Shown here: positions 10,801 to 58,526 of the stretch, piece after piece
Layout: each line of letters starts with the position of its first letter
How positions within the stretch are numbered: the stretch's first letter is position 1
IMG/VR virus record: IMGVR_UViG_3300029705_000018
DNA from: a virus
Lineage: Duplodnaviria; Heunggongvirae; Uroviricota; Caudoviricetes
Direction: 5' to 3' (one strand)
Length of the DNA stretch: 64,000 nt
Program-made: the position numbers and the translations under genes
Notes under the pieces: model-generated
Database searches by the model: none
Told to the model about the DNA's origin: nothing
What the model saw: only the letters and a program-made list of their open reading frames with translations

Positions 10801-11271
10801 CGCCGCAACCGGTTGGATGAAAAAGGATTTGATCCCGAAGAAATCCAGCGTATTGTTGATATTACTAATCCTAATGGAGATTGGCGTACTCGTTATGGAA
10901 TTTCTGACTTAAGTAAGTATGCTTATTCTAGTTTTGATACTGGTGGTTATACTGGAGCTTGGGGTTCTTATGGTAAGTTCGCTATGTTACATGAAAAAGA
11001 ATTGATTTTGAATCCAGGTGAAACTGAAAACTTTTTAGCAAGTATGGAAGTATTGCGTAGTATTATCAAGATGATTGACTTACAAAGCACTGCTTCTCAG
11101 CTAGGTGGATTGTTACATAGTCCTGGATATTACGCTCCTCAAACTTCTGAGGTATTAGAGCAAAATGTTCATATTGAAGCTAGCTTCCCTGAAGTAACTG
11201 ATAGATATGAAATTGAAGCTGCTTTGACTTCTATCGTCAATCGTGCTTCTCAATACGCTAACCGTAAATAA
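1882..11271 (+). CDS. Tape-measure-like giant tail protein of about 3,129 aa with 36 in-frame TAG sense codons. Contains an internal hydrophobic transmembrane-like segment (GMVIPMVTTAFTGNNLAMLGSV...LVVAGLTLVITALAAG) and long coiled-coil-like regions. Ends with TAA.
   Basis: Ten ORF-track pieces (3106, 4303, 5149, 6301, 7609, 8563, 8773, 9172, 9439, 10537) are all in frame 1. Every gap was translated by hand and contains only TAG. RBS GAGAAAGGAG before ATG 1882. A terminator follows at 11278. Confidence 0.8.
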
Positions 11272-11362: not shown

Positions 11363-11386
11363 AGATTATAAGAGAGAAAGGAGATA

Positions 11387-14300: not shown

Positions 14301-16972
14301 ATGGAGTTAATCCTACTTATTATAAAAATCCATATAAGATTTTTAGACGTAAGGAAGAAACTGATGCTGATGGTAATGTAATCCATGAAGCTGATTCTGA
14401 AGTTACTGGTGTAACTTGGAAGATTATGTATTATAAAGAAAATGGCGATATTATGACTGCCACAGATTGGGGTCAATCACAATATGCTGTTTTACAAAGT
14501 TATATGCCTAAATTGAATGAGCGAAATTGCTTGATTCCTTGTCATATTTTCTTAGAAAATAATGGTGGTACAATGGTTTATCCAGTTGTTACTTGTGAAG
14601 ATGAGGATGCAGTAGTAATTTGGGCTCAGCCAATTTATTGTATGAAAAATAGATACGCTTCTGCTATGATCAATAAATGGGACGGTAGTCTAGTTATTGA
14701 TGAAGAGAATGGAACTATTATGTCTACTATGGTAGGTGCGGGCCGCAAGAACTCAGAAAACCAATTTGAAGGTGTTTTACTGGGCGATGTAAATACCGCC
14801 TCTGAAGATAATGCTACTGGCGTAGGCTTATATGGTTTCCACAAAGGAGCGCAAAGCTTTAATTTCAATGTTGATGGTACTGCTTTTATCGGTAAATCTG
14901 GTAGAGGTAGAATCAAGTTTGATGGAAATACAGGTACTATTACAAGTGCTTCGTATGAACAAGCAAAAGATTCTTCTGGAATGAAAATTGATTTAGATGA
15001 TGGTATCATTGACATGAAGGGAGCTAAAATTGATGCTACTACTGGTAAGTATGTAGCAGATACTGCAAGTCATATTCATATTGATGTAAAAAGTCCTTAT
15101 TTCAAGATTGATAGTGTTAAAGGTAAAACTTTAATGTTTATCGGCGGAGAGAAAGAAGGATATTATTTACAATCTGACGAATATAATGAAACAAAATTTA
15201 CTTTGAATGAGACTGAATCTAATGGCTTAACTACACCAACTACTGATACTACTGGTACCGGTATGCGATTGGATTTAAAAAATGGTACATTAGATGCATT
15301 TGATTTTTATTTAACTTCAAAGAATGTAATGTTAAATTCAAAAGATTCAAGTAAACCTTATTTTGTTATTAAAGATAATTGTAACAATATGCTTATGCAT
15401 ATTGGTGGTACTAAGTTCTGGCTAAAATCTGCTGATTATAGTGAGACTGCAGCTGGTGAACCTGAATCTGGTATGAAAATTGATTTATCTACTGGTAAAA
15501 TTGATGCTTTTAATTTTTCATTAGTTTCTAGTAGAGTTAAATTGAGTACTAGCGGAACAGTAACAAAACCTTATTTAGAAATTGTTGGTAATGATATAAC
15601 TTTAATGCATATTTCTGAAGCGGGACAATATATTCGTTCTAATACTTTTATTCGAGAGGCTGCTGGTACTCCTGGAACAGGTATGGAAATTAATCTTGGT
15701 ACTGGAGAATTTACAGCTTATACATTTAATTTAAAAGCTGGTAATGCTTCTACTGGTCAATTAAGAATTGATAGTAGTGCCGCACAATATCCTTTGTGGA
15801 TAGGTACAATTGATAAAACCTATGATCCTGAAAATGATGATCCAGAAGATATAATTCCTAATTTTAAAGTTGATTGGGCCGGCAATTTTTATTCACAAGG
15901 TGGTAAATTTACCGGAGCAATTCATGCAACTAGCGGTACTCTTGGTAGTTTAACTGTTAGTGGTGTTTTGACAGGTGGTACTATTTCAGGTGCTACTATT
16001 GAAGGTGGCGTGTTAAAAGTAGGTCCAACCTCAGGAGAAACTGGTTATCAGTTATATGCTGATAACAAAGAGGTTGTAATTAAAAATGCAAAAATTATAA
16101 ATTGTGATATTTAGAGCGGCGATGGAGCTCCCACAGGTACTGGTGGATTTAGTGTCACTCCAGCGGGTATTATGAAAGGTTTTGGTTGTAGTTTAACAAA
16201 TGGATCTTTTACCACTTGTACTGTAATTGATTCTTTATATATCGGAGGAACTGTGGATGGAAAGACCGTTTCTGGCAATATTTATTTAAATGGTAATAAT
16301 AAAATATATTTTGGTTCTGGTACTGGTAATTATTTATATTTTTCAGATGATGGTCGTGTTTCAGTAAGTGCTTTAACGGCTTTTTATGCTAATAAAATAA
16401 ATGCTTCAAAAATAACTGCTTATCAAATTGTTGGTGCGCTAGAATCGAATGGCATGGAAGACTATAATACTCAAGTGTTATTTACTTCAGGAGCAAAAGT
16501 AAAAGGTCATTATTTATCAGCAGAAAATTCTTCTGGAGCTTTACTATTTTCAGCAGGTGATAATACCGCTGGTTTATATGCTAGTAGCGTTTATTTAGGT
16601 GGTACTAAGACCGCTTCTGTTAATGTAGCAGATGGTAATGGTAGTGTTGTAAGCTTAGAGGCATATATAAAATCAATAATAAAAGATAGCGTTACAGTAT
16701 CTGTGACTTCTGGAGCTAGTGATACAACAGTAACTGGTGGAACAGATGGGGTTTATACAGTAACAACAACAGATAATAAAACTGTTACAGCATCTTAGAC
16801 AATTTGTTGTTATACATATACACAACCTTCTGGAGGTTATTTTTCTACTACTGAAACAGCTGGTAGTCCGCCATCAGGTTCTTACTATACTTATTGTACT
16901 AAAGATAAATCTCAAACAAAAGATGTTTCAACTTCTGGTACAATTCAAGTAGCTGTTACTATTAAAGATTAA
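11387..16972 (+). CDS. Giant tail fibre or tail spike-like protein of about 1,860 aa with 6 in-frame TAGs at 11447, 12578, 12647, 13346, 16112 and 16796. Carries internal ~70-aa tandem repeats (GMKIDL.../GMRLDL.../GMEINL...).
   Basis: ORF pieces 11468, 12674, 13463 and 16172 are all in frame 2. TAA at 16970-72. Start assigned to TTG 11387 or GTG 11393 after RBS AAGGAG. A consensus promoter lies at 11334..11362. Confidence 0.7.
14968..15790 (+). repeat. Four ~70-aa tandem protein repeats inside tail-fibre gene 11387..16972
   Basis: Repeated G-M-x-[IL]-[DN]-L...G.[IL]DAF.F...KPY[FL] units in the translation. Confidence 0.5.
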
Positions 16973-16997: not shown

Positions 16998-17363
16998 ATG
17001 AAAATGACAAATTTAGAAATTTATAATACTGCAAGTCACCTTATGGAGGCTTTCAGTGATGGTAATCAAAAATTACCTGTTAAATTGAATTTCTTCTTAC
17101 AGAAGAATAAAAAGACTTTATTGGGTTTAGCTCAAGAAATTGAAGAGGCTCGTTTGAATGTTGCTAAAGAACTCGGCGTTCAAAATGAAAATGGTGGATA
17201 TACCGTCGAACCTGAAAATGTTGATAAGGCCCAAGCTGAATTAACTCAGTTGTTTAATATTGAGCAAGAGGTTGACATTGCTATGATTAGTTATGATGAT
17301 CTCGATCCTGGTATGACAATGACTGCTGCCCAGATGGAAGCATTATTGTTCATGATTAAGTAA
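16998..17363 (+). CDS. Hypothetical protein, 121 aa
   Basis: Intact ORF with RBS AAAAGGAG. A rho-independent terminator follows at 17370. Confidence 0.7.
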   Translation: MKMTNLEIYNTASHLMEAFSDGNQKLPVKLNFFLQKNKKTLLGLAQEIEEARLNVAKELGVQNENGGYTVEPENVDKAQAELTQLFNIEQEVDIAMISYDDLDPGMTMTAAQMEALLFMIK

Positions 17364-17369
17364 TTATAT

Positions 17370-17406
17370 GGGCTACTGGAAATTTTCCAGTAGCCCAATT
17401 TTTTAG
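17370..17406 (+). terminator. Rho-independent terminator
   Basis: gggctactggaaattttccagtagccc followed by aatttttt. Confidence 0.75.
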
Positions 17407-17425
17407 AGAGAAAGGAGTTAGAGTT

Positions 17426-20272
17426 ATGAAATTACATCCACCTGTTATAGATGGTAAATTACCTGCTTTTGCGGGAACCTCAATGAATATTCCTTTTATG
17501 TTGAATCGTGCAGTTGCTCTATCTGATTTGAATGAAGCCACTCCACTAAAATTGAAAATTAAAACTGTAAAAACCAACAGAGAGATTGGTACTTTTAGTG
17601 GTCAATATATATACAATAAAGCTACGGGTAATTATCATGCTAACTTTATTTTATCTGAAAAGAAAAATGAAATAAAATTTGGTACTTTTTATAAAGTTCA
17701 AATTGCTTTTGTTTCTAAGGATAATACTGTGGGTTATTATTCTACCGTAGGAATTATTAAATGTACTACATACCCCATCGTAAAAGTTTAGGGACAAAGT
17801 GATAATTTATCTAATAGTTATGAATATGTTGGTGTTTATCAACAGCCAAGCGAAGGTAATAAGTATGATACAACAGAAAAAGCTTACTCTTATTGTTTTG
17901 AATTAAGGGACATTGATGGAAATATTGTTTCTACAAGCGGAACTCAAATTCATAATAGCTCTTATGATACGGAGCCAGAAGAGATGCATGACCACTGGGT
18001 TTTGCGAAAGAATTTGAAAGAAGGAGTTCCTTATTATCTTACTTATAAAGTAACTACTACCAATGGATTAGAATGTGAAAGTCAAAGTTATCCAATTGTT
18101 ACTCAAGAAAGCGTAGACTCTTCTCTTCAAGAGAAATGTGATTTAATTGCCACTTCTAATTTTGAAGATGGTTTTATTCGTTTAAGTTTACGTCCAAAAG
18201 TGAAGCATGGTGTTATTGATGGTAGCTTTGTTTTGTCTCGTTCTTCTAGCGAAGATAATTTTGATAGCTGGAATGAGATTTACCGATTCTCTTATAAAAA
18301 TCTTCATGTATATGGAGATATTGGAGAATCTGCGGACTTATTAACAACTCACCCAGATTTTTGGGATAAGAATGATTTAATCCTTTGGGAAGATTTTACT
18401 GTGCAACAAGGTGTTCAATATGTTTATTCTATTCAAGCATTCAATGCTCAAGGATTATTTTCTAATCGAATGATAAATCATAAATGGACACTAGCTTATC
18501 GTGACAATGATATGAATGCCGCAGGCGACTATGAAGAGCCTGATGGTTATGATGAATACCGCAGAGGATATTATTTTGACAGCACTCCAGAAACTATTAC
18601 AGTTGATTTTGAAGATATGTTCTTATTTGATGGCTCTCGTCAATTAAAGATTAGATTTAATCCAAAGGTTACTTCTTTTAAGTCTACTGTTTTGGAATCT
18701 AAAATTGATACTTTAGGCGGTAAATATCCATTCGTATTTAGAAATGGTAATGTAGAATATAAAGAATTCCCTGTATCTGGATTATTATCTCTCATTAGTG
18801 ATCCAAATGAGTTCTTCTTAAAAGGTATTTAGACTGAGAAGTTATTATATCGTTCTTAGGCTAATGGCGATGAAATTATCGGTCCAGGAGATACTCATGT
18901 AACTATGGATAATTTACGCAGAGAACGCGAATTTAAAATGGAGGCTTTGTCTTGGCTAACAAATGGCAAGCCTAAGTTGTTCCGCTCTCCTAGCGAGGGT
19001 AATTTTATTGTTCGTATTATGAATGTATCCATGTCTCCACTTGATGTAGTGGGACGTATGCTTCATAGCTTTAGCGGAACTGCTTACGAGATTGCGGAAT
19101 GCACTTTTGATAATCTAAATACATATGGATTTATTTCTGCTCCTGATAGAGATAATCGCGATCTGAAAATCGGTTAGATTAGACTTGCGGACGCCGCAGA
19201 TCCCAAAAAAGATGTACAAGGATTTAGTGCAGAAGGTAATAAAATTACCACTCCCGCAATTTATCGAGCTAGCTTTACTGGTGTCGCTCCTGGAACAATT
19301 TTTGCATTAAACTTTGAAGATGGATATGGTAATGTTGAAATTGAAATTGGCTATACGGGTACTTATTATGTACAAGTACAGGATAAACCAATTACTTCAA
19401 TTACTTTATTAAAATCCGCAGATATTGATAAATTAGATTATACTAAGAAACCTGAGACCGATGATTGGAGAGACGCATATTTAACTTTCTGTTATTATGA
19501 TAGTAATCCTACTGATAATTTTAGTAAGATTACAAGCATCGCAGTACAAGACGAATTTAGACAATTTATTGGCACTGGCTTTAATGCTAATCTTATTTCT
19601 TTTTTGGAAGATATTCGTCGATAGACTGGTAGATTCCATTATTTGCGAATTAGCGAAAGACCAATTCGTCAGATTTATAAAGATAGTAACGGAGTTTGGT
19701 TCTTTAATCCACAGTTCACCGATCGTATATATGATACTGAATGGGATGCTAGTGTAATTTATCAAGTCGGAAATTCAGGAACTTATTATAGCGGTAAACC
19801 TCGTTCTCCCATGGGTAAGCCTGATTATCGTCTAAAGATTGTAAATGGTGATGGCGAGTATGAGGATGAAATCAAATTCGATGGTAGAAAATCACCTGGC
19901 ATCGAATTAGATAAATGGTGGCCTACTAATTCTTATAATAATGGTCGTATCAATAAATCTTCTGGTACTCACAGTAGAATTGATGCGATTACTGGTGTTG
20001 ATAAAATTGATGGAATTTATATTGGCACTGGTTTAATGGTTGAGATGGCTTATCGTGTTAAATTCTTAGGATATGATGTTGAGACTAGTAGTAGTGCAGT
20101 TAGAAATGCTAAAGCAACTTGGCAGGCTGCAATTGAGAATTGGGAAGCTGTCACTGGTGATGCAGAATCTACCAGAGAACAAATTGATGCTAGTTTACAA
20201 CAAATTGAATCTGCTTATGCAAAATATATAGAAGCACTTGAATATGCTTTGGCACAGGAGGTTGAAGATTAA
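17426..20272 (+). CDS. Large structural (baseplate or tail-associated) protein of about 948 aa with 5 in-frame TAGs at 17789, 18830, 18848, 19175 and 19622.
   Basis: ORF pieces 17426, 17984, 18905 and 19643 are all in frame 2. Gaps contain only TAG. TAA at 20270-72. RBS AGAGAGAAAGGAG. Confidence 0.7.
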
Positions 20273-23169
20273 TGGTTTATGATAAAAATTTTTTATTAGA
20301 GTTAGATAGAGATAAAAACAAAACCATTTATGCTCGTATCACAGCTTTGCGCTTTGATGAATCTCCTATTGAATTTATTGAAGGTCGTGTAACGCAGGGT
20401 TCCATCAATATCGATGGAACCTCTGCCATCAGACGCTCTTGTTCTTTAACCATGGTCGCCGCAGATTTTGATTATCGAAATTATTATTGGGGACTGAATA
20501 CTAAATTCAAGTTAGAAATTGGATTGGAAAATTATATCAATCCTGCCTACCCAAAAGTATGCTGGTTTGATTAGGGTGTCTTTTTAATTACTCAATTTAA
20601 TACAAGTCGTAATGCCTCAAGTTTTAATATTTCTGTATCTGGTAAAGATAAGATGTGTTAGCTAAATGGTGAAATTGGTGGTAATTTTGAATCTTCTGTT
20701 GATTTCGGTCAAATTGAAGAACAAAATCCTGATGGCTCTTGGAAAATTACTAAACTTCCAATTCATCGTATTATTCGCGAAATGATTCACCAATACGCCG
20801 GAGAGCCTTTTCACAATATTATTATCAATGATTTAGAAGAATATGGTTTAGAGCTTTTAGAGTATCAATACGATGTTCCAATGTTTTTATACAGACATAT
20901 TGATTCTCCAATTTATACAAACGCTTTATTAAAAGGTGAAGTCGAATGTAAGGTAGACAGAGTTAATCCAGAAACAAAAGAAGTAGAGCGAGTATCCATT
21001 CAAGTAAAAGATTTAACTAATACAGAATTAGAAATGTTAGTTGATCCATTGACTGGAACACCTAATCCCTCTGAAGTATGGATTTGGGACAGTGAAGAAA
21101 AGCAAGATATTCCTTATTATTTTGCTAAGATTGAAACTAATTAGACTGCAGGTTATCGAACTACTGAGTTAACTTACCCAGGTGATTTGATTGCGGCCGC
21201 AGGTGAAACAGTTACTTCTGTTTTAGATAAGATCGTAAATATGCTTGGTGAATTCGAGTATTTTTATGATTTATAGGGACAATTCATTTTCTAGAAAAAG
21301 CGTTCTTTTGTCAATACTTTATGGTCTCCATTGGTTGATAGTAGTTCCGATGATGAGGATGGTTCTTATGATGAACAATATGTAGAAAGCTTGGCGATTG
21401 CTTCCTCTCAAAGTTATGTATTCCATGAAGGAGAGCTAATTACTGCTTTCAATAATAATCCTAATTTGACTAATATGAAAAATGATTATTCAATTTGGGG
21501 TACTCGTGCTTCCGTTCAAAATACTGAAATTCCAATTCATATGCGCTATGCAATTGATAAGAAACCAACCTTCTACCGCACATATGACGGAAGTAAATTC
21601 TTTACAACTGAGAAAAAAACTGATGAAGATTTATATAATGAAATCTTTAGCGAGCTATATGAAGAATTTACTAAAAAGCCAAATCCAAATGGATTACCGG
21701 AAGATTGGTGGGATATTATGGATTGGGCTGAAAGATATAAAATGCTAAAAGGTTTTTATCCTCCTGGACGTATTGGCCAATACTGTTCTGAAGCAGTAAG
21801 TAAAAGAATTGATTTAAATTCTTATTTCCCTGCTCCTCCTGAGGATTAGAATTTGAATGATAGTAGAGGTAAATGGAATCATTATCGTGACATTTATATC
21901 TTTGATGTAGAAAGTGATGGAACTCTTGGATATTATGGACATTATAATGGATGTACTCATTATTATGAATATTTCTTAGAAAGAGCGTTAGAAGGATTAG
22001 GAACTTCTTACATTTATAAGCCAGAAATTCCCGAATCTGAAGGCGGCGATGTAAGTAATATTGTTGTTGATATTATGAAAAATCGTGTTTATAATCAAGA
22101 TTGGCGAGAAATTATTTATCAAATGGCTTTAGACTATTATCAGCATGGTCAAGAAGAAGATTTTGAGCAACGGATTATTGAAAATAATTATCCTTATTAT
22201 CCTACTGGATTGACTGGATATGAATCTTATTATATTGATTTACAAGGCTTTTGGAGACAGTTATATTATCCCATTGAAAGAACTGTGCAAGAATACCAAG
22301 ATGAAAAAGCAAAATTAATGGAAGAGAAAGGGTTCATTGGAAATTTTATTTATACTCCTGAATATATTGAAGAGAACAAAGAAGCATTATCTAACCTAGA
22401 TAAGAAATTTGATTATTTCTTCTATGTAAGAAAAGAAAAGGACGAAGAAGGCGTAGTGCATGAGCTAGATCGATTTGGACCTGAGCAAGAAGAAGATGAA
22501 ACAGATGACGCTTATGCGGAAAGAATAGACGCATTGTTATTACAATTCCAAGATGCTTTATACGTCACTTTAACTGAAATTGAAGAGCTTATTGCGAAGT
22601 GCGATACAAAAATTGAAGCAGTTGAAGAAGAAAGCTCTTATTATTATACCAAAGATGAACTTTATCCTCATTGGCGTAAAGATGTTTATGAATCTCCTTA
22701 GAGCTTGAATTTCTGGTTTGACTTTTTAGATACAGATGGAGAACTGGCACAATTCAATGTGTAGAATGTCGGTCGTAGGCCAAAAGTTGTAAATGATTCA
22801 AGTGTAAAATCCATTTATTTTAGAGATACACCGGACATTATTTTTAGAACTGCTGATGAGGGAGAAATAATGACTGGTTATAGATACATTTAGGCTCCAA
22901 TGATTGAGACCATGTTTAAGATTAGTACTCAAGGCAAATCCGCAAAAGATAAGTTAGATGAACTAATTTATACTCATGGATATTGCATTGAAAATGCTAC
23001 AATTACAACTATTCCAATCTATTATTTGGAACCTAATATTCGTGTGCATTTATATGACAACGAAACCAATCTATGCGGAGATTATATTATTAGCAAATAT
23101 ACTATTCCATTAGCATATAATGGAACAATGAGTATTACTGCTACTAAAGCCGCAGAAAATATTGTTTAA
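20272..23169 (+). CDS. Large structural protein of about 965 aa with 8 in-frame TAGs at 20572, 20656, 21142, 21265, 21283, 21847, 22699 and 22750. Its start overlaps the upstream stop (TAATG).
   Basis: ORF pieces 20272, 20782, 21331, 21853 and 22900 are all in frame 1. TAA at 23167-69. Confidence 0.65.
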
Positions 23170-44892: not shown

Positions 44893-45300
44893 ATGGACTG
44901 GATGGTTATGTTATATCAAATTTTTGAACTTTGCGTTATTCCTCTCTTGGGTGTATTGACTATGTACTTAGTTCAATTCATTAAAATGAAGAGCCAAGAA
45001 ATCGCAGATAAGACTGATAGTGAATTAGCAGATAAGTACATTCAAATGCTTGCTGATACTATCACTACTTGCGTTATCGCAACTAATCAGACTTATGTTG
45101 AATCTTTGAAGAAGCAAGGTAAGTTTGATGCAGAAGCTCAGAAGGAAGCTTTCAATTTGACTTATAATGCAGTTATGTCTGTATTAACTGATGAAGCTAA
45201 GCATTATTTGGCTTCCATTTATGGCGACTTGACCGCCTACATTACTAGTCGTATTGAGGCTGAGGTTAATGTAAGTAAGATTGTTCCTGTTACTGAGTAA
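44893..45300 (+). CDS. Small membrane protein of 135 aa with an N-terminal transmembrane helix. Holin candidate.
   Basis: Intact ORF. Hydrophobic N-terminus MDWMVMLYQIFELCVIPLLGVLTMYLV. A strong terminator follows. Confidence 0.5.
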   Translation: MDWMVMLYQIFELCVIPLLGVLTMYLVQFIKMKSQEIADKTDSELADKYIQMLADTITTCVIATNQTYVESLKKQGKFDAEAQKEAFNLTYNAVMSVLTDEAKHYLASIYGDLTAYITSRIEAEVNVSKIVPVTE

Positions 45301-45310
45301 TTGCGGAGAT

Positions 45311-45353
45311 ACCCGAAAAATACCTAAAAAGTATTTTTCGGGTATTTTTTTTT
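45311..45353 (+). terminator. Rho-independent terminator after the holin-like gene
   Basis: acccgaaaaatacctaaaaagtatttttcgggt followed by a 9-T run. Confidence 0.75.
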
Positions 45354-45554: not shown

Positions 45555-45989
45555 ATGTACTCAAACTATAATTATTATCCACAACAACCCTAGCAAGTCG
45601 CCCAATAGCAACCAGTGTACCAACCATTGTCTTACTTACGACAGGCGCCGCCGCAAGCAGGACTGAAAGGACGCTTGGTAGCATCATTGGAAGAGGCCCG
45701 TGCAACCTCTATTGACTTTGATGGTTCTGTATTCTACTTCCCAGATTTAGCGAACAGACGAATCTACACAAAACAAATAAATATGGATGGCACCGCATCA
45801 CTGTGTGTGTATGAATTAAGGGAAATGCCCGTTTAGAGAGAAGAGAGCGGTTCTGTTCCATCCGTTGAGAAATTTGTAACGAGAGAAGAGTTTGAGCAGG
45901 TCCTGGCGCAACTACAAATGCTCCAGAAGCCAACCGAGCCGGCCGTATCTGCCCCCGCAAAAGAAAAAGTAGAATTAATGTCATTCTAA
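45555..45989 (+). CDS. Hypothetical protein of about 144 aa with a Q/Y-rich N-terminus (YNYYPQQP-Q-QVAQ-Q-QPVYQ) and 3 in-frame TAGs at 45591, 45606 and 45834.
   Basis: ATG at 45555 after GGAGAGGAG. Frame 0 is continuous to the TAA at 45987-89. ORF-track piece 45615..45836 is in the same frame. Confidence 0.55.
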
Positions 45990-45999
45990 GGAGGTATGA

Positions 46000-46254
46000 A
46001 TGATGTATCCAGTAAACCCAAATAAATTAATCCAAATGATTAAATCCGGGCAAAATCCTCAGCAATTGATGTTATCAATTTTGAAAGGACAAGCCTATGA
46101 TAATCCCCTCGGAAAAAATCTCCTAAATTTAGCTCAATCTGGTCGCACTGTCGAATTAGAGAAAGTAATTCGCAACCTTTACGCCCAGTAGGGCGGTCAA
46201 AATTTCGACCAGGAGTTCGAAGCCTTTAAACGTGCATTAGGCTACAACACTTAA
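46000..46254 (+). CDS. Hypothetical protein of about 84 aa with 1 in-frame TAG at 46189
   Basis: ORF 46000..46191 continues in frame to the TAA at 46252-54. Confidence 0.5.
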
Positions 46255-46275
46255 AATTTAAGGAGGAAAAAAATT

Positions 46276-46992
46276 ATGTTCAATGGAAAAGGTTATAATT
46301 TATCTGATATCGCTGCTGTAACCCGTGGAAGTGGTACTGGTTTCGGTGGAGATGGCGACGGCGCATGGTGGCTGTTACTGTTATTCCTGTTTGCGGGATG
46401 GGGTAATGGTGGCTATGGCGGCGGCCTTGGCGCAGGTAACGCTCGCGACGCTGTTTCTTATGGCTTTGATATCAACAATCTAGAAAATGGAATCCGTGGA
46501 CTAGAGCATGGTCTATGCGATGGTTTCTATGACATGAACACTTCTTTGCTAACTGGTTTTGGTAATGTTACTATGGGTAATATGCAGAACACTAACGCCA
46601 TTATGGGCCGTTTGTGTGATATGTCCGCAGAGCAAGCTGCTTGTTGCTGCGAAACTCAGCGCTTGATTGAGAGAGGTTTGTGCGAAGTCAACTATAATAT
46701 CTTGACTCAATCTAACGCAACTAATACTAATATTGCCAATGCCGCGAGAGATATTATTGAAAACAATAATAATGGTGTTCGCTCTATCTTAGACTTCTTG
46801 ACTCAGGATAAGATTGCTACTTTGCAGGCTGAAAATCAGGCTTTGCGCTTGACCGCTTCTCAGCAAGCTCAGAACGCTTTCTTGATCGACCAGTTAGGAA
46901 CTAAGGCTCCTATTCCTGCATACATGGTAGCTAATCCATATGCTAGCTATGGTTGTGGTATGAACTACTATGCTGGATGTGGCTGCAACTAA
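46276..46992 (+). CDS. Gly/Cys-rich hypothetical protein of 238 aa with one hydrophobic segment (WWLLLLFLFAGW)
   Basis: Intact ORF with RBS AAGGAGG. GC content is visibly higher than in the flanking DNA. Confidence 0.65.
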   Translation: MFNGKGYNLSDIAAVTRGSGTGFGGDGDGAWWLLLLFLFAGWGNGGYGGGLGAGNARDAVSYGFDINNLENGIRGLEHGLCDGFYDMNTSLLTGFGNVTMGNMQNTNAIMGRLCDMSAEQAACCCETQRLIERGLCEVNYNILTQSNATNTNIANAARDIIENNNNGVRSILDFLTQDKIATLQAENQALRLTASQQAQNAFLIDQLGTKAPIPAYMVANPYASYGCGMNYYAGCGCN

Positions 46993-47011
46993 TATCTAAG
47001 GAGGAAAGTAT

Positions 47012-47434
47012 ATGGAAATTATTGCTAATGCTGTTCAAACAGTTCCCGCAAATCAGAATGTTTATTTCACTGATTCTGTTACTTCTGGAAATTATTCTAT
47101 CGAGCATCGTGATGGTAGTGGATTGGTGACTCTTCGCGGAGTCACCAATACTCAGTGCCGCGCCCGTTTTAGAGTACATTTCGGCGCAAATGTCGCGATT
47201 GCAGAAGGTGGCACCGTCGGACCAATTTCCTTAGCTATCTCTTTGGATGGTGAAGCGGTTCCAGCTACAATTATGACTGTCACCCCTGCCGCAGTTGGAG
47301 ATTTCTTCAATGTGAGCGCATCTATCTTTATTGATATTCCAAAAGGATGCTGCTCTCATGTGGCCGTGAAGAATATTTCTACTCAGCCAATTGATGTACA
47401 AAATGCAAATCTAATTGCTGAACGTTCTGCGTAA
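47012..47434 (+). CDS. Small 140-aa protein resembling the BclA C-terminal (C1q/TNF-like jelly-roll) domain
   Basis: Intact ORF with RBS AAGGAGG. Pattern NQNVYFTD...GNYSIEH..GSG.VTL..G.Y...F is typical of exosporium BclA_C-like domains. The call rests on motif recall only. Confidence 0.6.
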   Translation: MEIIANAVQTVPANQNVYFTDSVTSGNYSIEHRDGSGLVTLRGVTNTQCRARFRVHFGANVAIAEGGTVGPISLAISLDGEAVPATIMTVTPAAVGDFFNVSASIFIDIPKGCCSHVAVKNISTQPIDVQNANLIAERSA

Positions 47435-47445
47435 GGAGGGATAGT

Positions 47446-48027
47446 ATGGACCACGAAAGATTAAAACACATGAAAGAAACTTTAATGTGTGCTGTTGAAG
47501 TACAATTATGTGATTTGGGTGAAGTAGATACTAAAGAGCTTGGAGAAGCTATTGATATGATTAAAGATTTAGAAGAGGCAATCTACTATTGCACCGTTAC
47601 AGAAGCTATGAACAACTCTTCACACGAAATGGAGTTTGAAATGAAAAAAGGCGGCCATCACCAGTAGGAAAATGGTGACAGCCGCATGTATTATGACAGA
47701 AATCGTAGAAGTGATGGTACATTCTATGCTGACAATGATAATTCTTCTTCTTCTGGAATGAATAGTTCTAATGGAAGAAATTATTACGATGACCCAGGTA
47801 TGTGGCGCGATGAGCGCGAAGGCCGCAGTTATAATAGTCGTAGAATGTATATGGAAGCCAAGGATATGAAACGAGATAAAGCTACTCAATTGCGTGAGTT
47901 AGAAAAGTATATGCAAGAGCTATCTCTGGATATTACCGAAATGATTGCGGATGCTTCTCCAGAAGAAAAAGCATATCTTGAAAAGAAGATAACCGCATTG
48001 GCTTCTAAAATTGGTCAAATGAAATGA
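47446..48027 (+). CDS. Hypothetical protein of about 193 aa with 1 in-frame TAG at 47665. TGA stop.
   Basis: ORF pieces 47446 and 47686 are both in frame 1 and joined by a TAG. RBS AAGGAGG. Confidence 0.55.
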
Positions 48028-48335
48028 TTATAAATGGCGTGCGCTGGCGGGTCCGGTTGGTCTCGCCAGCCCATCCAATGCTACTTACGCCTTGGAGAAC
48101 TCACGCTCTTGGAGTTTGTGATAAAGTCACATAGACTATATGTATAGACAAGACTCTTTCCCCTCAACAACTAAAAGAAGTCTTATGTCATGAATTAGTT
48201 CATGCTTTTATGTTTAGCTATGCTGTGGATTTATCATATGATGAAGAGGAAATGGTAGCAGAGCTTATGACTGAATATGGAGAAGATATATTAGAACGGA
48301 CAAACGCGATTTATAATGGTATAAAAATGAAATAA
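48024..48335 (+). CDS. HExxH zincin-like small protein of 103 aa (SprT/ImmA-IrrE-like motif ...ICIDKTLSPQQLKEVLCHELVHAF...) with 1 in-frame TAG at 48132. Not present in the ORF track.
   Basis: ATG 48024 overlaps the upstream TGA (ATGA). Frame 0 is continuous to the TAA at 48333-35 and was hand-translated codon by codon. Confidence 0.5.
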
Positions 48336-48380
48336 GGGTCGATTATGAATAATCATAATCGACCCCTTATTTTTTTTTGG
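48331..48380. terminator. Bidirectional terminator at the junction where the plus and minus modules converge
   Basis: aataagggtcgattatga...tcataatcgaccccttatt hairpin flanked by a T-run on plus and an A-run on minus. Confidence 0.65.
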
Positions 48381-48381
48381 T

Positions 48382-48840
48382 TTAATCAACAACGTCGTCA
48401 TTATCAACTTTTAAGTCTAAAGCCATAGCCTTATCATAATAGATTTTAGCTTGACCGTTGCCACCCAAACCAGTATATAATTTATAGAACTCGGTTAACT
48501 GTTCCATCTGTGCAGGAGTAATATATCCCTGAGCTAAGAATCCTTTGCATAATTGTACTAAGCGGAAACGATAAGAAGCAATAATCAGATTCATATGAGT
48601 CTTCTCGATGTTCTCAGTTTCTCTGATATATTTTCTTAGTTCCTCTAATTCCTGATATACTGGTTCTAAATGGATCTCAATGGTGTCCTCGACATGTTGT
48701 CTCTCTTGGGCGGCGGCTAATTCTCTAGCGTTTCTTAATTCACGATTCAATTCACGAGTTTTGAACTTAGCATAACCAATTACACCGGCACTGATAAGAG
48801 CAAACAAAATCTCCATACCCCACTCAGCTAATAATTCCAT
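48382..48840 (-). CDS. Hypothetical protein of 152 aa with an N-terminal transmembrane helix followed by coiled coil
   Basis: Intact ORF. TAA stop. RBS AAAGGGGG. Confidence 0.6.
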   Translation of the reverse strand: MELLAEWGMEILFALISAGVIGYAKFKTRELNRELRNARELAAAQERQHVEDTIEIHLEPVYQELEELRKYIRETENIEKTHMNLIIASYRFRLVQLCKGFLAQGYITPAQMEQLTEFYKLYTGLGGNGQAKIYYDKAMALDLKVDNDDVVD

Positions 48841-50969: not shown

Positions 50970-50998
50970 ATTATATCAATTTTTTTTATGTAAGTCAA
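50970..50998 (-). promoter_or_regulatory. Consensus promoter TTGACT-N17-TATAAT (minus strand). Identical 30-mer to the copy at 58562.
   Basis: Reverse complement reads TTGACT tacataaaaaaaattga TATAAT. Overlaps the nrdG stop and precedes gene 50442..50939. Confidence 0.7.
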
Positions 50999-51458
50999 TT
51001 ATACGCTGGTTGCGAGAGCCTCTCATTTCTAGAGTCAAATCTCGCTCTGCTTCAATATATGGACCGTCGATTAGGACGTCCGCTAATTCCAGACATGATT
51101 TGACATGAGGGTCGCCAGACCGCAATAATTCTTCATAAGTGTAGCCGCTCCAAATATATATCTTCACTTCTGGAAGCTTATGTCTTACCTCTTGGAGAAT
51201 CAAATTTACCAGAAAAGCATTTGCTTCACACAAAGGTTCACCGCCCATAATACATAAATTACGCTTGATTCCTTGTGCGGTTAGTCCTTCTAAAATCTTA
51301 TGTAAAGTATTATTTGTAAACTCCTTACCTCCATCAAAGGCCCAGGTGCCAGGATTATGACACCCAGGACAATGATGAGGACAGCCTTGTGTAAAAAAGC
51401 TTACACATAAACCTGGAGCAGCGGTGATATCATTTAGTATCAATCCACTGTATCTCAT
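50976..51458 (-). CDS. nrdG: Anaerobic ribonucleotide reductase activating protein (radical SAM)
   Basis: CxxxCxxC cluster GCPHHCPGCHNP. Length 160 aa. Adjacent to nrdD. Confidence 0.9.
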   Translation of the reverse strand: MRYSGLILNDITAAPGLCVSFFTQGCPHHCPGCHNPGTWAFDGGKEFTNNTLHKILEGLTAQGIKRNLCIMGGEPLCEANAFLVNLILQEVRHKLPEVKIYIWSGYTYEELLRSGDPHVKSCLELADVLIDGPYIEAERDLTLEMRGSRNQRIIDLHKKN

Positions 51459-54560: not shown

Positions 54561-57500
54561 TTATTCGTCTCCTTGATAACGAGCATCTAATAGTTTCAAA
54601 TCACCATTAGGATAAATTTTATCAATTTTATATAACTGGTGTCCACCAGTTGAAGCATACTTCTTAGAAATGAAATCATCACCAGAACGAATACCAGTTA
54701 CCACAATCATATTACCTCGATTGAACCAGGACTTTTCCATGATCTTCTTAGTTCCATCGGGTTGACGAGCAGAAATCTGCTTATCAAATAATGTGAAATA
54801 TTCTTTTCTAAATTTCACATTTACAACACCTGTGTTAGTCAAAATAGTAACTGTACTCTTAGTTTTATTCTTCGCGATACAAGTTCCGCAAATACGATTC
54901 AAGTGAAAGATATGGATTTCTTTGTCACCCTTTTTAAAAGTCTTTTCAATTACGGGGTCTTCTGGCAAAGCAAAGAAATCAACAAAGCCATACTTGTCAT
55001 TATTTACATGAGCCAATTCGTGCTCATGATAATAGAAGCACAATACTTCCATCTCCCATGCGGAGATACTGCCCTGGGCATATTTCTCCCAGTCTTCCAT
55101 GAAGATTTTTGTATTCAATGCTTCAAGGATTTCTTCCTTATCAGTAGCAATCCAATTTCTGAAAATGTTCATATACTTCTGATATACATTATCCCAAGTC
55201 TTGACTTTGATAAACCAAGCGAGATTATCGCTTTCCATCAAGTCTTCACATTCAATTTCATGTAAGAATGAAATTGCTCGTGGATCAAGACTATACATAT
55301 CTTTGTAAGCACATTCATCAGCCTTTGTAATTGCTTTTAGATAACGATTGAACTCATAAACTCTACGAGCCATAATTTGCTCTTCTGTGGATTCAGGTAA
55401 TAAACCATGCTTGATAAGACCACCCATATTCTGTAAAGTCAAACGGCTCTTCTTATCACAAGTCTCCCACAGATACCATGCCATTACGAAACGACGATCT
55501 TCCATATCATCAAAGGCACCGCCCTTGATTAGAGAAATCATTGCTTGCTTACCGGGCTTTACTTTCTGTAAGAAATCCTTGGGAGAAGCATATGGTCTAT
55601 TTGCGATGATTGCGGCGATAACATCATCGCCGACATTTAGCATACCTTTCAAACCAAACAGAATACGATTATTTTCCACGTCGGGAGCAAATCCAAATTG
55701 AGATTTATTGATATCAACCAGACTCACCTTGATGCCAGCCGCACGAATATCTCCAATTGCCTTAGCAATCTTACCATAGTCAGTGCTTGCGGTCTTACGA
55801 ATCTTACCAGACCGATCGGGCAGATCCTGGAAAGTCACGCCTTCGCTTAGGTCTTGTCCTTCTGGCTCATAAATATCAACAATCTCTTCTTCACTATTAT
55901 CTTCCAAAGAACCACTATTGACAATCAGACAAGCTGTATTCCAGTAGATGGGATTGAAATTCATGGCAAGATAAATAGATTGCATACCAACGAATGAATA
56001 AGGTAATGAGTGATTCAAGCTAAATGCGTATCCTAACTGAGGGGCAACCGCATTTTCCCAGAAGTAATTCGCAGAATTGACATGGTCAAATCTACTATAT
56101 ACATCCTCGCGCAACTGCGGAATCTTACTCATTTGCTTTTTACCGACAATCTTTCTTGCGGTATTTGCTTCACCTAATGTGAAGCCAGCGACATCCATCA
56201 ACAGTTCCATCATTTGCTCCTGGATTGCACAACAACCCCAATATTGATCACAATGCTTATGCATCAACGCAATCATATTAGAATCAAGTCCTGCTTGAAC
56301 CATTTCTCGATGAAACTCAGTCAAACCTTTCCGTTGAATACGGACGTATCTGTCCTGCTGAGACTCTTTGCCTTTTTCGCTCATCAGTCTCATCATGGCG
56401 TTTGCCGCAGTCATCTCCATAGGATTTTGAGGCTTCAACTTTTTCGCAATGGCTAGACCGACACCTGTGCTGAACTGAAACACGTCCAGAACATCACCGG
56501 CCGCAAGGTGATCCCAAATGCGCTGGTCAGTTGTATCCATTACTTCTGGATGGATATATTTATTATATAATTCACGCAAACTCAAATCTGGAATTACTTT
56601 ATCTGCTACCAAAAGTTCAAAACATTTAATAATCTTATCAGAAATTTCAGTAACCAGGAAGTCGTACTTAGTATCACCTGCGGCCTCAGCTTTATGTAGG
56701 TCATAACAGGTAATCAAGTCACCACTAGGAGTTCTCATAAAAGCTGCTGTATCAAATGGATCATCACCATATAAGATAACACCAGATGCGTGAGAAGAAC
56801 ATTTATTTACAAGTCCATCAATGGACTTGATAATATTTAGCAAACCAGGATACTGATTTACTTCTCGAATGAAAGCAACAACAGGCTTTCTGTCTTTACT
56901 TTCATTACCATTAACAACATCATCAATAGACCACAAAAAACCACGTTCCTGTGGGATTAGAGATGACATATATTGGGCTTGGTCGACATCAATTCCATCA
57001 GGAAAATCTTCACTTCGGTATCCTCGGCAGGCGGTAAGGATGGCTGATTTAGTTCCTTCTGTGCCGAAGGTTCCAACTTGGATAAGTCCAAGTTCACCTC
57101 TTTCTTTCCGAATTCTTCGAAAGATTTCTGGTCGCTTTGAGGGAGCGAGGTCAATATCAATATCGGGCAACTCAGCTCTTTCTTTGTTAAGAAAGCGCCA
57201 ATATGGTAACTTCCATCGTACTGGATCAAGTTGGGTGATACCCAAGAGATAGTTAGAGAGGAATCCAGTCGCTGAACCTCGTCCTGGACCAACGATACTG
57301 CCGCACTCCCAGAAGAGGTCAATATAGTGTTTGAATGTGTTGAAATAAGCGAAGAGACAATCTTCAAGCTTTCTTCCAATGTCGTCAATTACGTCTGCCT
57401 CCGTTTCAAGTCTATCCCAATATTCTCTCTTATCAATGAAGCCTTTTTCGTGCATACTCTTCAAGCATTCACCCAACCAATATCTCTCTTGATCATTACC

Positions 57501-58526
57501 CGCACAAATAATGCGATCTAAAGTGGGCCACTGATAAGAATCCCATTGAATATCTTCTGGCAATAAATCCCAAAGATTATCATAAAATGGAACTTGAACT
57601 TTAGGAATAATCTGCTTACGCTCCAAAGAGTAATCTTCAATTTTACTCTGAGCTTCTAAGGTCGCCGCAAAAATATCATCAATATCAACATCACTAAATG
57701 ACTTTGACAATAATGTTCGACACTCTTCTGGACTCATTAAATATGCGAACTCATAGAAGTCATCAACTTCTCGTTCACCATCTTTTGAGTTCAAATAAGA
57801 TTTATGGACAAATCTATCTTCTTTTGTCAAATAATGAGAGTCAGTACCAACAACCATATTGATACCATATGCTTTCGCAATTCTCATTAGTTTGCGGTTG
57901 ACCTCACATTGTTGACTTGCGCTTGAGGGAGCGCACTCAATATAAAAATCATCACCAAACAAGCCTCGACAATAATCAATAAAATCGCAAATCTGGTCAT
58001 AATAAACCTTTGCGTTTACCATATCATTTACTCGTTCAGCCTGCGACATATTCCAGGCGGCGGTAGATAATTCACCACCAAGACAAGCAGAGGTCGCAAT
58101 TACATGGCCACGATATTTGCTAATGATTTTAGTCATTTCTTCTTTCGTGATTGGCACACGCTTCATACCTCTATCAGTATAAGCGTAATACCATGCAATA
58201 GAACTCAATTCACGAAGTGCCTTATGTCCGATGGCATCCTTCGCAACTAAAATAAAGTGATAATATTTTATACCACTTTCTCGTTTATCTACTAAATAAA
58301 CCTCATTGCCTAAAGCGATTTTGAAGTCGGGATGGTTCTTTTTAACTTCCTTCGCATATTGATTTACTTCCATATGACCACTAATACATTCATGGTCAGT
58401 AATCGCAATGCCAGAAAGACCCAACTCAATCGCTTTGTCAATGAGGTCTTTTGGTCTATTGATACAATCGAGCAAGCGGATATTAGAATACATAGTATGA
58501 TTGTGAATATTGAAGTAAGTTGTCAT
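54561..58526 (-). CDS. dnaE: DNA polymerase III alpha (DnaE-type, family C) with an N-terminal PHP domain, 1,321 aa
   Basis: PHP motifs HNHTMYS...ITDHE. Palm motif LPDIDIDL. Uninterrupted ORF. A consensus promoter lies upstream at 58562..58590. Confidence 0.8.
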   Translation of the reverse strand: MTTYFNIHNHTMYSNIRLLDCINRPKDLIDKAIELGLSGIAITDHECISGHMEVNQYAKEVKKNHPDFKIALGNEVYLVDKRESGIKYYHFILVAKDAIGHKALRELSSIAWYYAYTDRGMKRVPITKEEMTKIISKYRGHVIATSACLGGELSTAAWNMSQAERVNDMVNAKVYYDQICDFIDYCRGLFGDDFYIECAPSSASQQCEVNRKLMRIAKAYGINMVVGTDSHYLTKEDRFVHKSYLNSKDGEREVDDFYEFAYLMSPEECRTLLSKSFSDVDIDDIFAATLEAQSKIEDYSLERKQIIPKVQVPFYDNLWDLLPEDIQWDSYQWPTLDRIICAGNDQERYWLGECLKSMHEKGFIDKREYWDRLETEADVIDDIGRKLEDCLFAYFNTFKHYIDLFWECGSIVGPGRGSATGFLSNYLLGITQLDPVRWKLPYWRFLNKERAELPDIDIDLAPSKRPEIFRRIRKERGELGLIQVGTFGTEGTKSAILTACRGYRSEDFPDGIDVDQAQYMSSLIPQERGFLWSIDDVVNGNESKDRKPVVAFIREVNQYPGLLNIIKSIDGLVNKCSSHASGVILYGDDPFDTAAFMRTPSGDLITCYDLHKAEAAGDTKYDFLVTEISDKIIKCFELLVADKVIPDLSLRELYNKYIHPEVMDTTDQRIWDHLAAGDVLDVFQFSTGVGLAIAKKLKPQNPMEMTAANAMMRLMSEKGKESQQDRYVRIQRKGLTEFHREMVQAGLDSNMIALMHKHCDQYWGCCAIQEQMMELLMDVAGFTLGEANTARKIVGKKQMSKIPQLREDVYSRFDHVNSANYFWENAVAPQLGYAFSLNHSLPYSFVGMQSIYLAMNFNPIYWNTACLIVNSGSLEDNSEEEIVDIYEPEGQDLSEGVTFQDLPDRSGKIRKTASTDYGKIAKAIGDIRAAGIKVSLVDINKSQFGFAPDVENNRILFGLKGMLNVGDDVIAAIIANRPYASPKDFLQKVKPGKQAMISLIKGGAFDDMEDRRFVMAWYLWETCDKKSRLTLQNMGGLIKHGLLPESTEEQIMARRVYEFNRYLKAITKADECAYKDMYSLDPRAISFLHEIECEDLMESDNLAWFIKVKTWDNVYQKYMNIFRNWIATDKEEILEALNTKIFMEDWEKYAQGSISAWEMEVLCFYYHEHELAHVNNDKYGFVDFFALPEDPVIEKTFKKGDKEIHIFHLNRICGTCIAKNKTKSTVTILTNTGVVNVKFRKEYFTLFDKQISARQPDGTKKIMEKSWFNRGNMIVVTGIRSGDDFISKKYASTGGHQLYKIDKIYPNGDLKLLDARYQGDE

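What the first reader, a model, noticed from the sequence alone, without database searches (positions are those of the whole stretch)
48024..48335. Unannotated HExxH metallopeptidase-like gene revealed only with TAG as sense
This gene is absent from the ORF track. An ATG overlaps the upstream TGA (ATGA). A continuous 103-codon frame contains one TAG. The product has LCHELVHAF, preceded by an ICIDKTLSPQQLKEVL segment. This is the SprT/ImmA-IrrE-type zincin arrangement found in phage anti-repressor and derepression proteases and in SprT-like domains. It sits at the convergence point of the late and early modules.
Basis: partly seen in the sequence, partly recalled or inferred. Interest (0 to 1): 0.55.

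Follow-up and report, generated by a model that had tools for sequence, protein, structure and literature searches.

The report
Small zinc-protease gene with recoded TAG
A real 103-codon phage gene for a very small zinc protease-like protein was missed by standard gene finding because this gut phage reads the stop codon TAG as glutamine. Both the recoding and this type of protein are already known, but the conserved gene cassette the gene closes has no known function.

Summary
Window 48024-48335 (+) is one 103-codon frame with a single in-frame TAG (48132-48134). Its ATG overlaps the upstream TGA, and it encodes LCHELVHAF.

It is a real gene, and the TAG is read as Gln:
- 119 of the 120 best homologs, all exactly 103 aa, have Q at that position.
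- Related contigs carry CAA or CAG there. Two others, at 96% and 87% nt identity, keep the TAG, and some relatives have a TAG at codon 84 instead.
- dN/dS downstream of the TAG is 0.05-0.27.
- In-frame TAG makes up 14% of Gln-type codons on the + strand and 1% on the - strand.

The product is a minimal stand-alone gluzincin. H56, E57, H60, E75 and E76 are conserved in at least 90% of 112 divergent homologs, with E57 and H60 invariant. The AF2 model has pLDDT 97.5. Its nearest folds are CapP, IrrE, ArdC, SprT and the minigluzincins. Pfam M78 is only just above threshold, and phrog_1233 matches at 4e-14.

An ImmA-like derepression role is not supported, because no HTH partner appears in any genomic context examined. 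Instead the gene is always the last gene of a conserved, uncharacterised cassette and directly follows an acidic Tyr-rich protein. The cassette also encodes a BclA-CTD/C1q-like protein and a Cys-rich membrane protein.

Verdict: a new member of known kinds, of moderate-to-low interest.

The parts
48024..48335 (+). Gene G: a 103-codon stand-alone mini-zincin (HExxH) with a TAA stop at 48333-48335
   Evidence: Translation. phrog_1233 at E 4e-14 over residues 3-89, and Pfam M78 at 23.4 bits against a cut-off of 22. 232 homologs, of which the best 120 are all exactly 103 aa. AF2 model with pLDDT 97.5.
48132..48134 (+). In-frame TAG (codon 37), read as Gln
   Evidence: Q in 119 of 120 homologs. CAA or CAG in L001, L002-7, L020 and L026-29; TAG retained in L025 and L019. 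dN/dS of 0.05-0.27 downstream of it.
48189..48203 (+). H56-E57-L-V-H60, the zinc-binding and catalytic motif on helix 47-65
   Evidence: E57 and H60 are invariant and H56 is at least 90% conserved in 112 divergent homologs. HExxH is present in 110 of 111.
48246..48251 (+). E75-E76 on helix 72-102, the candidate third zinc ligand (gluzincin type)
   Evidence: Both are at least 90% conserved. They lie on the helix that follows the HExxH helix in the model. Which of the two binds zinc is inferred, not shown.
48024..48027 (+). ATGA start/stop overlap with upstream gene F (translational coupling)
   Evidence: Sequence. The same ATGA is present in nine related loci.
48336..48365 (.). Terminator-like hairpin with T-runs on both strands, between the convergent + and - strand blocks
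   Evidence: 13-15 pair stem, found on both strands.
47446..48027 (+). Gene F: a 193-aa acidic protein with a Tyr/Arg-rich centre and one in-frame TAG at 47665-47667. It is the constant upstream partner of G.
   Evidence: An F homolog lies immediately upstream of G in all 27 loci that carry G. No Pfam, NCBIfam or PDB match.
47012..47434 (+). Gene E: a 140-aa BclA-CTD/C1q/TNF-like jelly-roll protein (phrog_20016)
46276..46992 (+). Gene C: a 238-aa protein with a Gly-rich region, one hydrophobic segment, a CCC motif, a coiled-coil-like stretch and a Cys-rich C-terminus (phrog_16490)
   Evidence: phrog_16490 at 7e-34. Homologs sit at the same cassette position.
46000..46254 (+). Gene B: an 84-aa protein whose in-frame TAG at 46189-46191 is conserved in six relatives
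   Evidence: Called as 82-84 aa in relatives.
45555..45989 (+). Gene A: a 144-aa protein with a Pro/Gln-rich N-terminus and three in-frame TAGs (45591, 45606, 45834). It is the first gene of the cassette.
   Evidence: phrog_21718 at 3e-12. Relatives have CAA or CAG at the position of 45591. Homologs in Dulem virus 39, L016 and L017.
45305..45349 (+). Terminator-like hairpin after the holin gene (44893-45300), marking the upstream edge of the cassette
   Evidence: 19-pair stem plus T-run. Holin is phrog_13712 at 9e-35.

Best explanation
Window 48024-48335 is an intact protein-coding gene of a TAG-recoded (code 15, TAG = Gln) phage of gut Clostridia, probably with a genome of about 200 kb. Its single TAG is translated as glutamine. 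A phage suppressor tRNA is presumably responsible, but none is encoded in this window. The gene can therefore be fully translated only when the recoded (late) translation state is on, as for the other + strand genes. The product is a 103-aa cytoplasmic stand-alone minimal gluzincin: a small beta-sheet, an HExxH helix, and a long helix carrying the conserved Glu-Glu. It belongs to its own family (phrog_1233) within the zincin clan, nearest to ImmA/IrrE (M78), SprT-like and DUF6782. The gene is the last one in a conserved, terminator-bracketed cassette (A-B-C-E-F-G) and is translationally coupled to F. Shown: the gene is real, TAG is read as Gln, the fold and catalytic residues are conserved, and the F-G linkage and cassette synteny hold. 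Inferred: G is an active zinc peptidase that processes or regulates a co-expressed cassette protein, most likely its constant neighbour F. I do not think it is an ImmA-type repressor-cleaving switch.
Against: No suppressor tRNA was found in the window or in ten related 10-20 kb loci, so the decoding agent was not seen. No biochemical evidence exists for peptidase activity, and small M78-only proteins can act by binding alone (Rir; PMC12828697). The substrate is inferred only from gene linkage. Butyrivibrio phage Ceridwen has the A-B-C-E part of the cassette without G, so G is dispensable for the cassette core. The cassette's function is unknown: no Pfam, NCBIfam, PADLOC or PDB sequence hits. 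The 'late' status of the + strand block rests on the holin, the fibre-like proteins and TAG usage, not on expression data.
Confidence: 0.72

Rival explanations
1. G is an ImmA/IrrE/Rir-type anti-repressor. It would cleave or sequester an XRE-family phage repressor and so control a lysis-lysogeny or early-late switch.
For: Pfam Peptidase_M78 is just above its cut-off. CapP and PprI/IrrE are among the top structural matches. Small M78-only phage proteins of this type exist, such as Rir (122 aa) and ImmA (169 aa) (PMC12828697). One cassette-bearing phage, Dulem virus 39, has an integrase and a Cro/C1-type gene about 2.5 kb downstream.
Against: No HTH gene is adjacent in the window or in any of about nine independent contexts. 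The constant neighbour is F, which has no HTH signature. No HTH/XRE hit was found among the 20 window proteins scanned with Pfam. The gene lies at the end of a TAG-containing operon next to lysis or tail genes (window, L015, L016), not in a lysogeny module. The family scores equally weakly for DUF6782 and SprT-like.
Confidence: 0.1
2. G targets a host protein rather than a phage protein. It would act as an anti-defence or host-takeover protease, with the F linkage reflecting a chaperone or inhibitor role for F.
For: The closest folds include ArdC (anti-restriction, SprT-like protease domain) and CapP (CBASS-associated). The cassette sits at moron-like positions bracketed by terminators, and its position relative to other modules varies.
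Against: No PADLOC hit. G is strictly linked to F and the cassette rather than occurring as a free-standing accessory gene. There is no DNA-binding or sensor domain. The in-frame TAG argues for late rather than immediate-early expression, whereas anti-defence factors are usually needed early.
Confidence: 0.13
3. The TAG is a true stop. The locus would then be a nonsense-mutated pseudogene, an assembly error, or two short ORFs.
For: Under the standard code the frame is interrupted. No suppressor tRNA is present in the window.
Against: The same TAG is present in two independent assemblies at 96% and 87% nt identity, each with an intact downstream frame. dN/dS downstream is 0.05-0.27. Orthologs have CAG or CAA there, and others have a TAG at a different Gln site. 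There are 84 further in-frame TAGs in + strand frames, including 36 in one 3129-codon frame.
Confidence: 0.02
4. G is a catalytically silent structural or binding subunit of whatever the cassette builds, with the HExxH kept only for metal-dependent folding.
For: Rir keeps the active-site motif, yet cleavage could not be shown (PMC12828697). One homolog has lost the first His (P0229).
Against: E57, the general base and not a metal ligand, is invariant in 112 sequences down to about 30% identity, along with H60, H56 and E75/E76. That pattern is expected for catalysis, not for metal-dependent folding alone.
Confidence: 0.08

Closest known systems
ImmA/IrrE family (Peptidase M78, COG2856), including the small phage protein Rir of S. 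thermophilus phage TP-J34
   Different: It has no adjacent XRE/HTH substrate gene in any context and no GAF-like domain. At 103 aa it is shorter. It sits at the end of a TAG-containing late operon inside a conserved cassette. Family members score no better for M78 than for DUF6782 or SprT-like.
Minimal archaeal zincins: selecase (MJ1213) and the minigluzincins proabylysin and projannalysin
   Different: They are archaeal rather than phage proteins. From my memory of the selecase paper, its third ligand is a His seven residues after the motif. The phage family has no conserved His there (A, M, N or D at position 67) and conserves Glu-Glu instead. Sequence identity is only about 15-21%.
SprT-like, Spartan, Wss1 and ArdC metalloprotease domains
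   Different: The window protein scores 17.7 bits against a cut-off of 25.6. It has no zinc-ribbon or DNA-binding region, and nothing links it to DNA-protein crosslink repair or conjugation.
Stop-codon-recoded (code 15, TAG = Gln) gut phages: crAss-like, Lak, the 'gemstone' clades and the phAss-1 group
   Same: In-frame TAGs are concentrated in structural, lysis and late genes and are rare in replication genes. TAG aligns with Gln codons of relatives. The phAss-1 group also has DNA polymerase III alpha, NrdG, dUTPase and holin genes (bioRxiv 10.1101/2021.08.26.457843; PMC10607447; PMC9523058).
   Different: No near-identical record exists in the phage collection. Related contigs are about 200 kb, against 136 kb for phAss-1. 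The suppressor tRNA was not observed here.

Membership tests
Peptidase M78 (ImmA/IrrE, COG2856) | Significant match to the family profile (Pfam PF06114 at or above its gathering score) | tested here: inconclusive
   The window protein scores 23.4 bits against a cut-off of 22. The 97%-identical P0001 scores 21.8 bits, below the cut-off. Only 53 of 112 family members match at E <= 0.01, fewer than the 68 that match DUF6782.
Peptidase M78 (ImmA/IrrE, COG2856) | HExxH plus a downstream Glu ligand on the next helix | tested here: met
   H56, E57 and H60 are conserved, and E75/E76 are at least 90% conserved on helix 72-102.
Peptidase M78 (ImmA/IrrE, COG2856) | Genetic pairing with an adjacent XRE/HTH-family repressor that is its substrate | tested here: not met
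   Neighbours in the window and in the 27 related loci that carry G are F homologs (upstream) and a terminator or unrelated genes (downstream). No HTH Pfam hit in the neighbours or in the other window proteins scanned.
Peptidase M78 (ImmA/IrrE, COG2856) | Cleavage or sequestration of the repressor | not testable with these tools
   This needs biochemistry.
SprT-like (PF10263) | Profile match at or above the gathering score | tested here: not met
   17.7 bits against a cut-off of 25.6, E 3e-3, covering only residues 45-66.
Gluzincin-type zincin fold (Peptidase MA clan) | Mixed beta-sheet, an active-site helix with HExxH, and a following helix carrying a Glu ligand | tested here: met
   [not shown]
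Gluzincin-type zincin fold (Peptidase MA clan) | Zinc binding and peptidase activity | not testable with these tools
   Inferred from invariant E57 and H60 and from the precedent of selecase (PMC10808063).
PHROG 1233 (phage protein family of unknown function) | Significant profile match | tested here: met
   E 4.2e-14, 53.4 bits, residues 3-89.
Genetic code 15 (TAG = Gln) phage gene | In-frame TAG aligned to Gln residues or CAR codons in orthologs, with the downstream frame conserved | tested here: met
Genetic code 15 (TAG = Gln) phage gene | Many in-frame TAGs across the genome, biased to late genes | tested here: met
   84 in-frame TAGs on the + strand against 2 on the - strand, including a 3129-codon frame with 36 TAGs.
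Genetic code 15 (TAG = Gln) phage gene | Phage-encoded suppressor tRNA(CUA) | tested here: inconclusive
   No tRNA in the 64-kb window or in ten related loci. About two thirds of the presumed ~200-kb genome was not available.

The most novel reading that the evidence does not exclude
The mini-zincin is the dedicated processing protease of a previously undescribed, very widespread cassette in phages of gut Clostridia. The cassette encodes a Pro/Gln-rich protein, a Cys-rich membrane protein, a BclA-CTD/C1q-like trimer, an acidic Tyr-rich protein and the zincin. It would build a cross-linked surface or fibre-like structure, on the virion or on the infected cell envelope, with assembly triggered late by TAG-dependent translation and proteolysis of F.
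Probability: 0.2. Interest if true: 0.6.

Novelty: new member of a known kind. Interest (0 to 1): 0.33.

Why it matters
In practice, this shows that standard-code ORF calling hides whole genes in this phage, so the window should be re-annotated with code 15. In-frame TAGs are 14 times more frequent, relative to Gln codons, on the + strand than on the - strand.

Biologically, the gene adds a clean example in which the same Gln site is TAG, CAG or CAA in orthologs. That is direct comparative evidence for TAG = Gln.

The more interesting lead is the context. A minimal zincin of about 100 aa is invariably coupled to an acidic Tyr-rich protein, inside a cassette whose most conserved member is a BclA/C1q-like protein. 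That protein has thousands of homologs and no assigned function. Working out this cassette would annotate a large block of gut-phage dark matter.

Tried and rejected
- Megablast of 46-50 kb against the phage collection found no match.
- The search for related loci with the zincin alignments A1 and A3 failed because no stretch was conserved enough. I used the E-protein alignment A2 instead.
- tRNA scans of the window and ten related loci found nothing, so the suppressor tRNA remains unseen.
- Pfam, NCBIfam, PADLOC and PDB sequence searches of cassette proteins A, B, C, E and F gave no meaningful hits.
- PHROG scans of ten large + strand proteins gave only unknown-function families.
- I considered a spore-coat or exosporium-related role for the cassette. 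The reasons were the BclA/ExsFA-like fold of E and the Cys- and Tyr-rich partners. I downgraded it because the cassette core occurs in a cultured phage of Butyrivibrio fibrisolvens, which to my knowledge does not form spores, and because C1q/TNF-like domains are also common phage fibre tips.
- The pseudogene or assembly-error reading is rejected.
- Literature searches for stand-alone M78 phage proteins and for phage BclA-like cassettes found nothing specific.

Full report
**Observation**

Window 48024-48335 (+) reads as 103 sense codons plus TAA, with one in-frame TAG at codon 37 (48132-48134). The product is MIINGVRWRVRLVSPAHPMLLTPWRTHALGVCDKVT*TICIDKTLSPQQLKEVLCHELVHAFMFSYAVDLSYDEEEMVAELMTEYGEDILERTNAIYNGIKMK.

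The ATG overlaps the TGA of the upstream ORF (ATGA, 48024-48027). Under the standard code the frame falls into a 36-aa and a 41-aa ORF, which explains its absence from an ORF track.

The gene is the last + strand gene. A hairpin at 48336-48365, with T-runs on both strands, separates it from the convergent - strand block.

HExxH by itself is weak evidence. It occurs 7 times in the six frames, against 2.0 +/- 1.6 in shuffles.

**The gene is real and TAG is read as Gln**

- phrog_1233 matches residues 3-89 at E 4e-14, straight across the TAG.
- The large protein database holds 232 homologs. The best 120 are all exactly 103 aa and 81-97% identical, and position 37 is Q in 119 of them.
- In the DNA of relatives, codon 37 is CAA (L001, L020) or CAG (L002-7, L026-29). 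Two independent assemblies, at 95.8% and 87.2% nt identity, keep the TAG (L025, L019).
- L002-7 instead carry a TAG at codon 84. There the window has GAA, and most homologs have Q.
- dN/dS against relatives is 0.05-0.27 downstream of the TAG, including comparisons between TAG-bearing copies.

A pseudogene or assembly error is therefore excluded.

The recoding extends across the window. With TAG as sense, 1882-11271 becomes a single 3129-codon frame with 36 TAGs. In-frame TAG makes up 84 of 598 (14%) of TAG+CAA+CAG codons in + strand frames, but only 2 of 192 (1%) in the - strand block.

The - strand block is a replication block. It encodes a RuvC-like resolvase, dUTPase, NrdG/NrdD, guanylate kinase, DnaE, a UvrD-like helicase and a RecJ-like protein.

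This is the published pattern for code-15 gut phages, in which late structural and lysis genes are recoded (bioRxiv 10.1101/2021.08.26.457843; PMC10607447; PMC9523058).

No tRNA is present in the window or in ten related loci, so the suppressor itself was not seen. Related contigs cluster at about 197-211 kb.

MAG hits are to Acutalibacteraceae, Oscillospiraceae, Eubacterium sp. and Clostridia. The DnaE is closest (38.7%) to SPbeta-like YorL.

**What the protein is**

Pfam gives Peptidase_M78 at 23.4 bits (cut-off 22), DUF6782 at 23.1 bits (cut-off 27) and SprT-like at 17.7 bits (cut-off 25.6).

An exhaustive search of 50%-identity cluster representatives finds 390 clusters at E <= 1e-3. Nearly all are stand-alone proteins of about 100-110 aa.

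HExxH is present in 110 of 111 of them. In a 112-sequence alignment, E57 and H60 are invariant, and W8, H56, E75 and E76 are at least 90% conserved.

Across the family, weak hits split between DUF6782 (68 of 112), M78 (53) and SprT-like (51). It is therefore a family of its own within the zincin clan.

A PDB profile search ranks selecase MJ1213 first (E 3.7e-5), then IrrE (4e-3), Wss1 and Spartan.

The AF2 model is very confident (pLDDT 97.5, pTM 0.86). It shows a small sheet, the HExxH helix at 47-65 and a long helix at 72-102 carrying E75/E76.

BFVD contains many phage proteins of about 100 aa labelled 'IrrE N-terminal-like', 'SprT-like' or 'peptidase'.

The product is therefore a minimal gluzincin core without any sensor, DNA-binding or membrane domain. 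Selecase shows that such a small zincin can be an active and tightly regulated peptidase (PMC10808063).

**Context**

Upstream lie a holin (44893-45300, phrog_13712 at 9e-35) and a terminator-like hairpin (45305-45349). Six genes then run to the terminal hairpin:

| Gene | Coordinates | Size | Features |
|---|---|---|---|
| A | 45555-45989 | 144 aa | Pro/Gln-rich, 3 in-frame TAGs |
| B | 46000-46254 | 84 aa | 1 conserved in-frame TAG |
| C | 46276-46992 | 238 aa | Gly-rich, hydrophobic segment, CCC motif, Cys-rich end |
| E | 47012-47434 | 140 aa | BclA-CTD/C1q-like (see below) |
| F | 47446-48027 | 193 aa | acidic, Tyr/Arg-rich centre, 1 in-frame TAG |
| G | 48024-48335 | 103 aa | the mini-zincin |

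The same order recurs in several kinds of sequence:
- the contigs of about 200 kb (L001-7, L026-29);
- short contigs whose G is only 30-44% identical (L009-L018);
- MAG contigs (L019-L023);
- Dulem virus 39, a 59.7-kb circular genome with an integrase. There the cassette lies between the integrase and a DUF4417/Cro region.

The cassette's position relative to other modules varies. It sits after the holin in the window, before holin and endolysin in L015, before a tape-measure gene in L016, and after a small sigma-70 region-4 protein in L017/18.

F lies immediately upstream of G in all 27 loci with G, and the ATGA overlap is conserved in the window's clade.

The cultured Butyrivibrio phage Ceridwen has A, B, C and E after its endolysin, but no HExxH gene. 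G is therefore an accessory member of the cassette.

**Mechanism**

Shown:
- the gene is intact and under purifying selection;
- it needs TAG = Gln decoding;
- the catalytic residues of a gluzincin are conserved;
- it is co-transcribed, and probably translationally coupled, with F inside a conserved cassette.

Inferred:
- G is a cytoplasmic zinc peptidase, since it has no signal peptide or hydrophobic segment;
- it is made only once suppression is active;
- it processes or regulates a cassette protein, most plausibly F.

The ImmA/Rir-type anti-repressor reading is disfavoured. No HTH partner is adjacent in any context, and none turned up among the 20 window proteins scanned with Pfam. It cannot be excluded without the full genome.

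Host-targeting (anti-defence) and non-catalytic roles remain possible. PADLOC gives nothing. The invariance of the general-base residue E57 argues for catalysis.

**Novelty and verdict**

Both components are known kinds: code-15 recoding of late genes, and small stand-alone M78/SprT-like phage zincins. Homologs are already present as full-length predictions in public databases, and the family is a PHROG of unknown function.

This is a new member of known kinds.

The part that is not understood, and worth following, is the cassette.

Noticed in passing
window 45555-48335 (+); also L001-L029 and PP511791.1 44.9-48.3 kb: There is a conserved, terminator-bracketed cassette, A-B-C-(D)-E-F-G, of unknown function. 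It is found in very different phages: recoded contigs of about 200 kb, the 59.7-kb temperate-looking Dulem virus 39, and many short contigs. Its position relative to lysis, tail and integrase modules varies.
   Followed up: partly
[not shown]
   Followed up: partly
window 1882-11271 (+): With TAG as sense this is one 3129-codon frame containing 36 in-frame TAGs. Under the standard code it is broken into at least eight same-frame ORFs. It is probably a giant virion protein. I did not characterise it, and PHROG gave no hit for one fragment.
   Followed up: no
window 11372-16972, 17360-20272, 20266-23169 (+): Several consecutive standard-code ORFs lie in one frame and are separated only by TAG. 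Either they are larger fused genes under code 15, or TAG still terminates in some contexts. This was not resolved.
   Followed up: no
window, whole: In-frame TAG usage is strongly asymmetric between strands: 84 of 598 (14%) Gln-type codons on the + strand against 2 of 192 (1%) on the - strand. The large + strand genes at 25.7-37.4 kb, including the 2156-aa LRR_5 protein, have none.
   Followed up: yes
window 46189-46191 (+): The in-frame TAG in the small gene B is conserved as TAG in all six related loci compared. The TAG at 45606 in gene A is conserved in the same way.
   Followed up: partly
window 48189-48204, both strands: The DNA encoding HELVH (CATGAATTAGTTCATG) is nearly palindromic, so the antisense frame also reads HELIH. 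This is a coincidence of the codons CAT/GAA and ATG/TTC, not a second gene.
   Followed up: yes
L006 16283-17227; L001 13453-13725; L026 13645-13917: In some relatives the NrdG (radical-SAM activase) gene is called as only 90 aa. In L006 a GIY-YIG endonuclease gene sits beside it, which suggests a homing-endonuclease or intron insertion. In the window NrdG (50976-51458) is an intact 160 aa.
   Followed up: no
L024 (Butyrivibrio virus Ceridwen MN882553.2) 7512-8306: A 264-aa protein that looks like an HNH/AP2-type endonuclease is inserted in the cassette between E and a short F-like Tyr/Arg-rich protein. This phage has no HExxH gene.
   Followed up: partly
window 54561-58526 (-): The DnaE-type polymerase (PHP + Pol III alpha) is closest in the phage collection to YorL of SPbeta-like Bacillus phages (38.7% identity over 99% of its length).
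   Followed up: no
window 48382-48840 (-); L016 849-1157: The 152-aa protein just across the terminator (phrog_4105/4257, unknown function, with an N-terminal hydrophobic segment) has a look-alike next to the cassette in L016. This similarity was judged by eye only. The gene may be linked to the cassette or to lysis.
   Followed up: no
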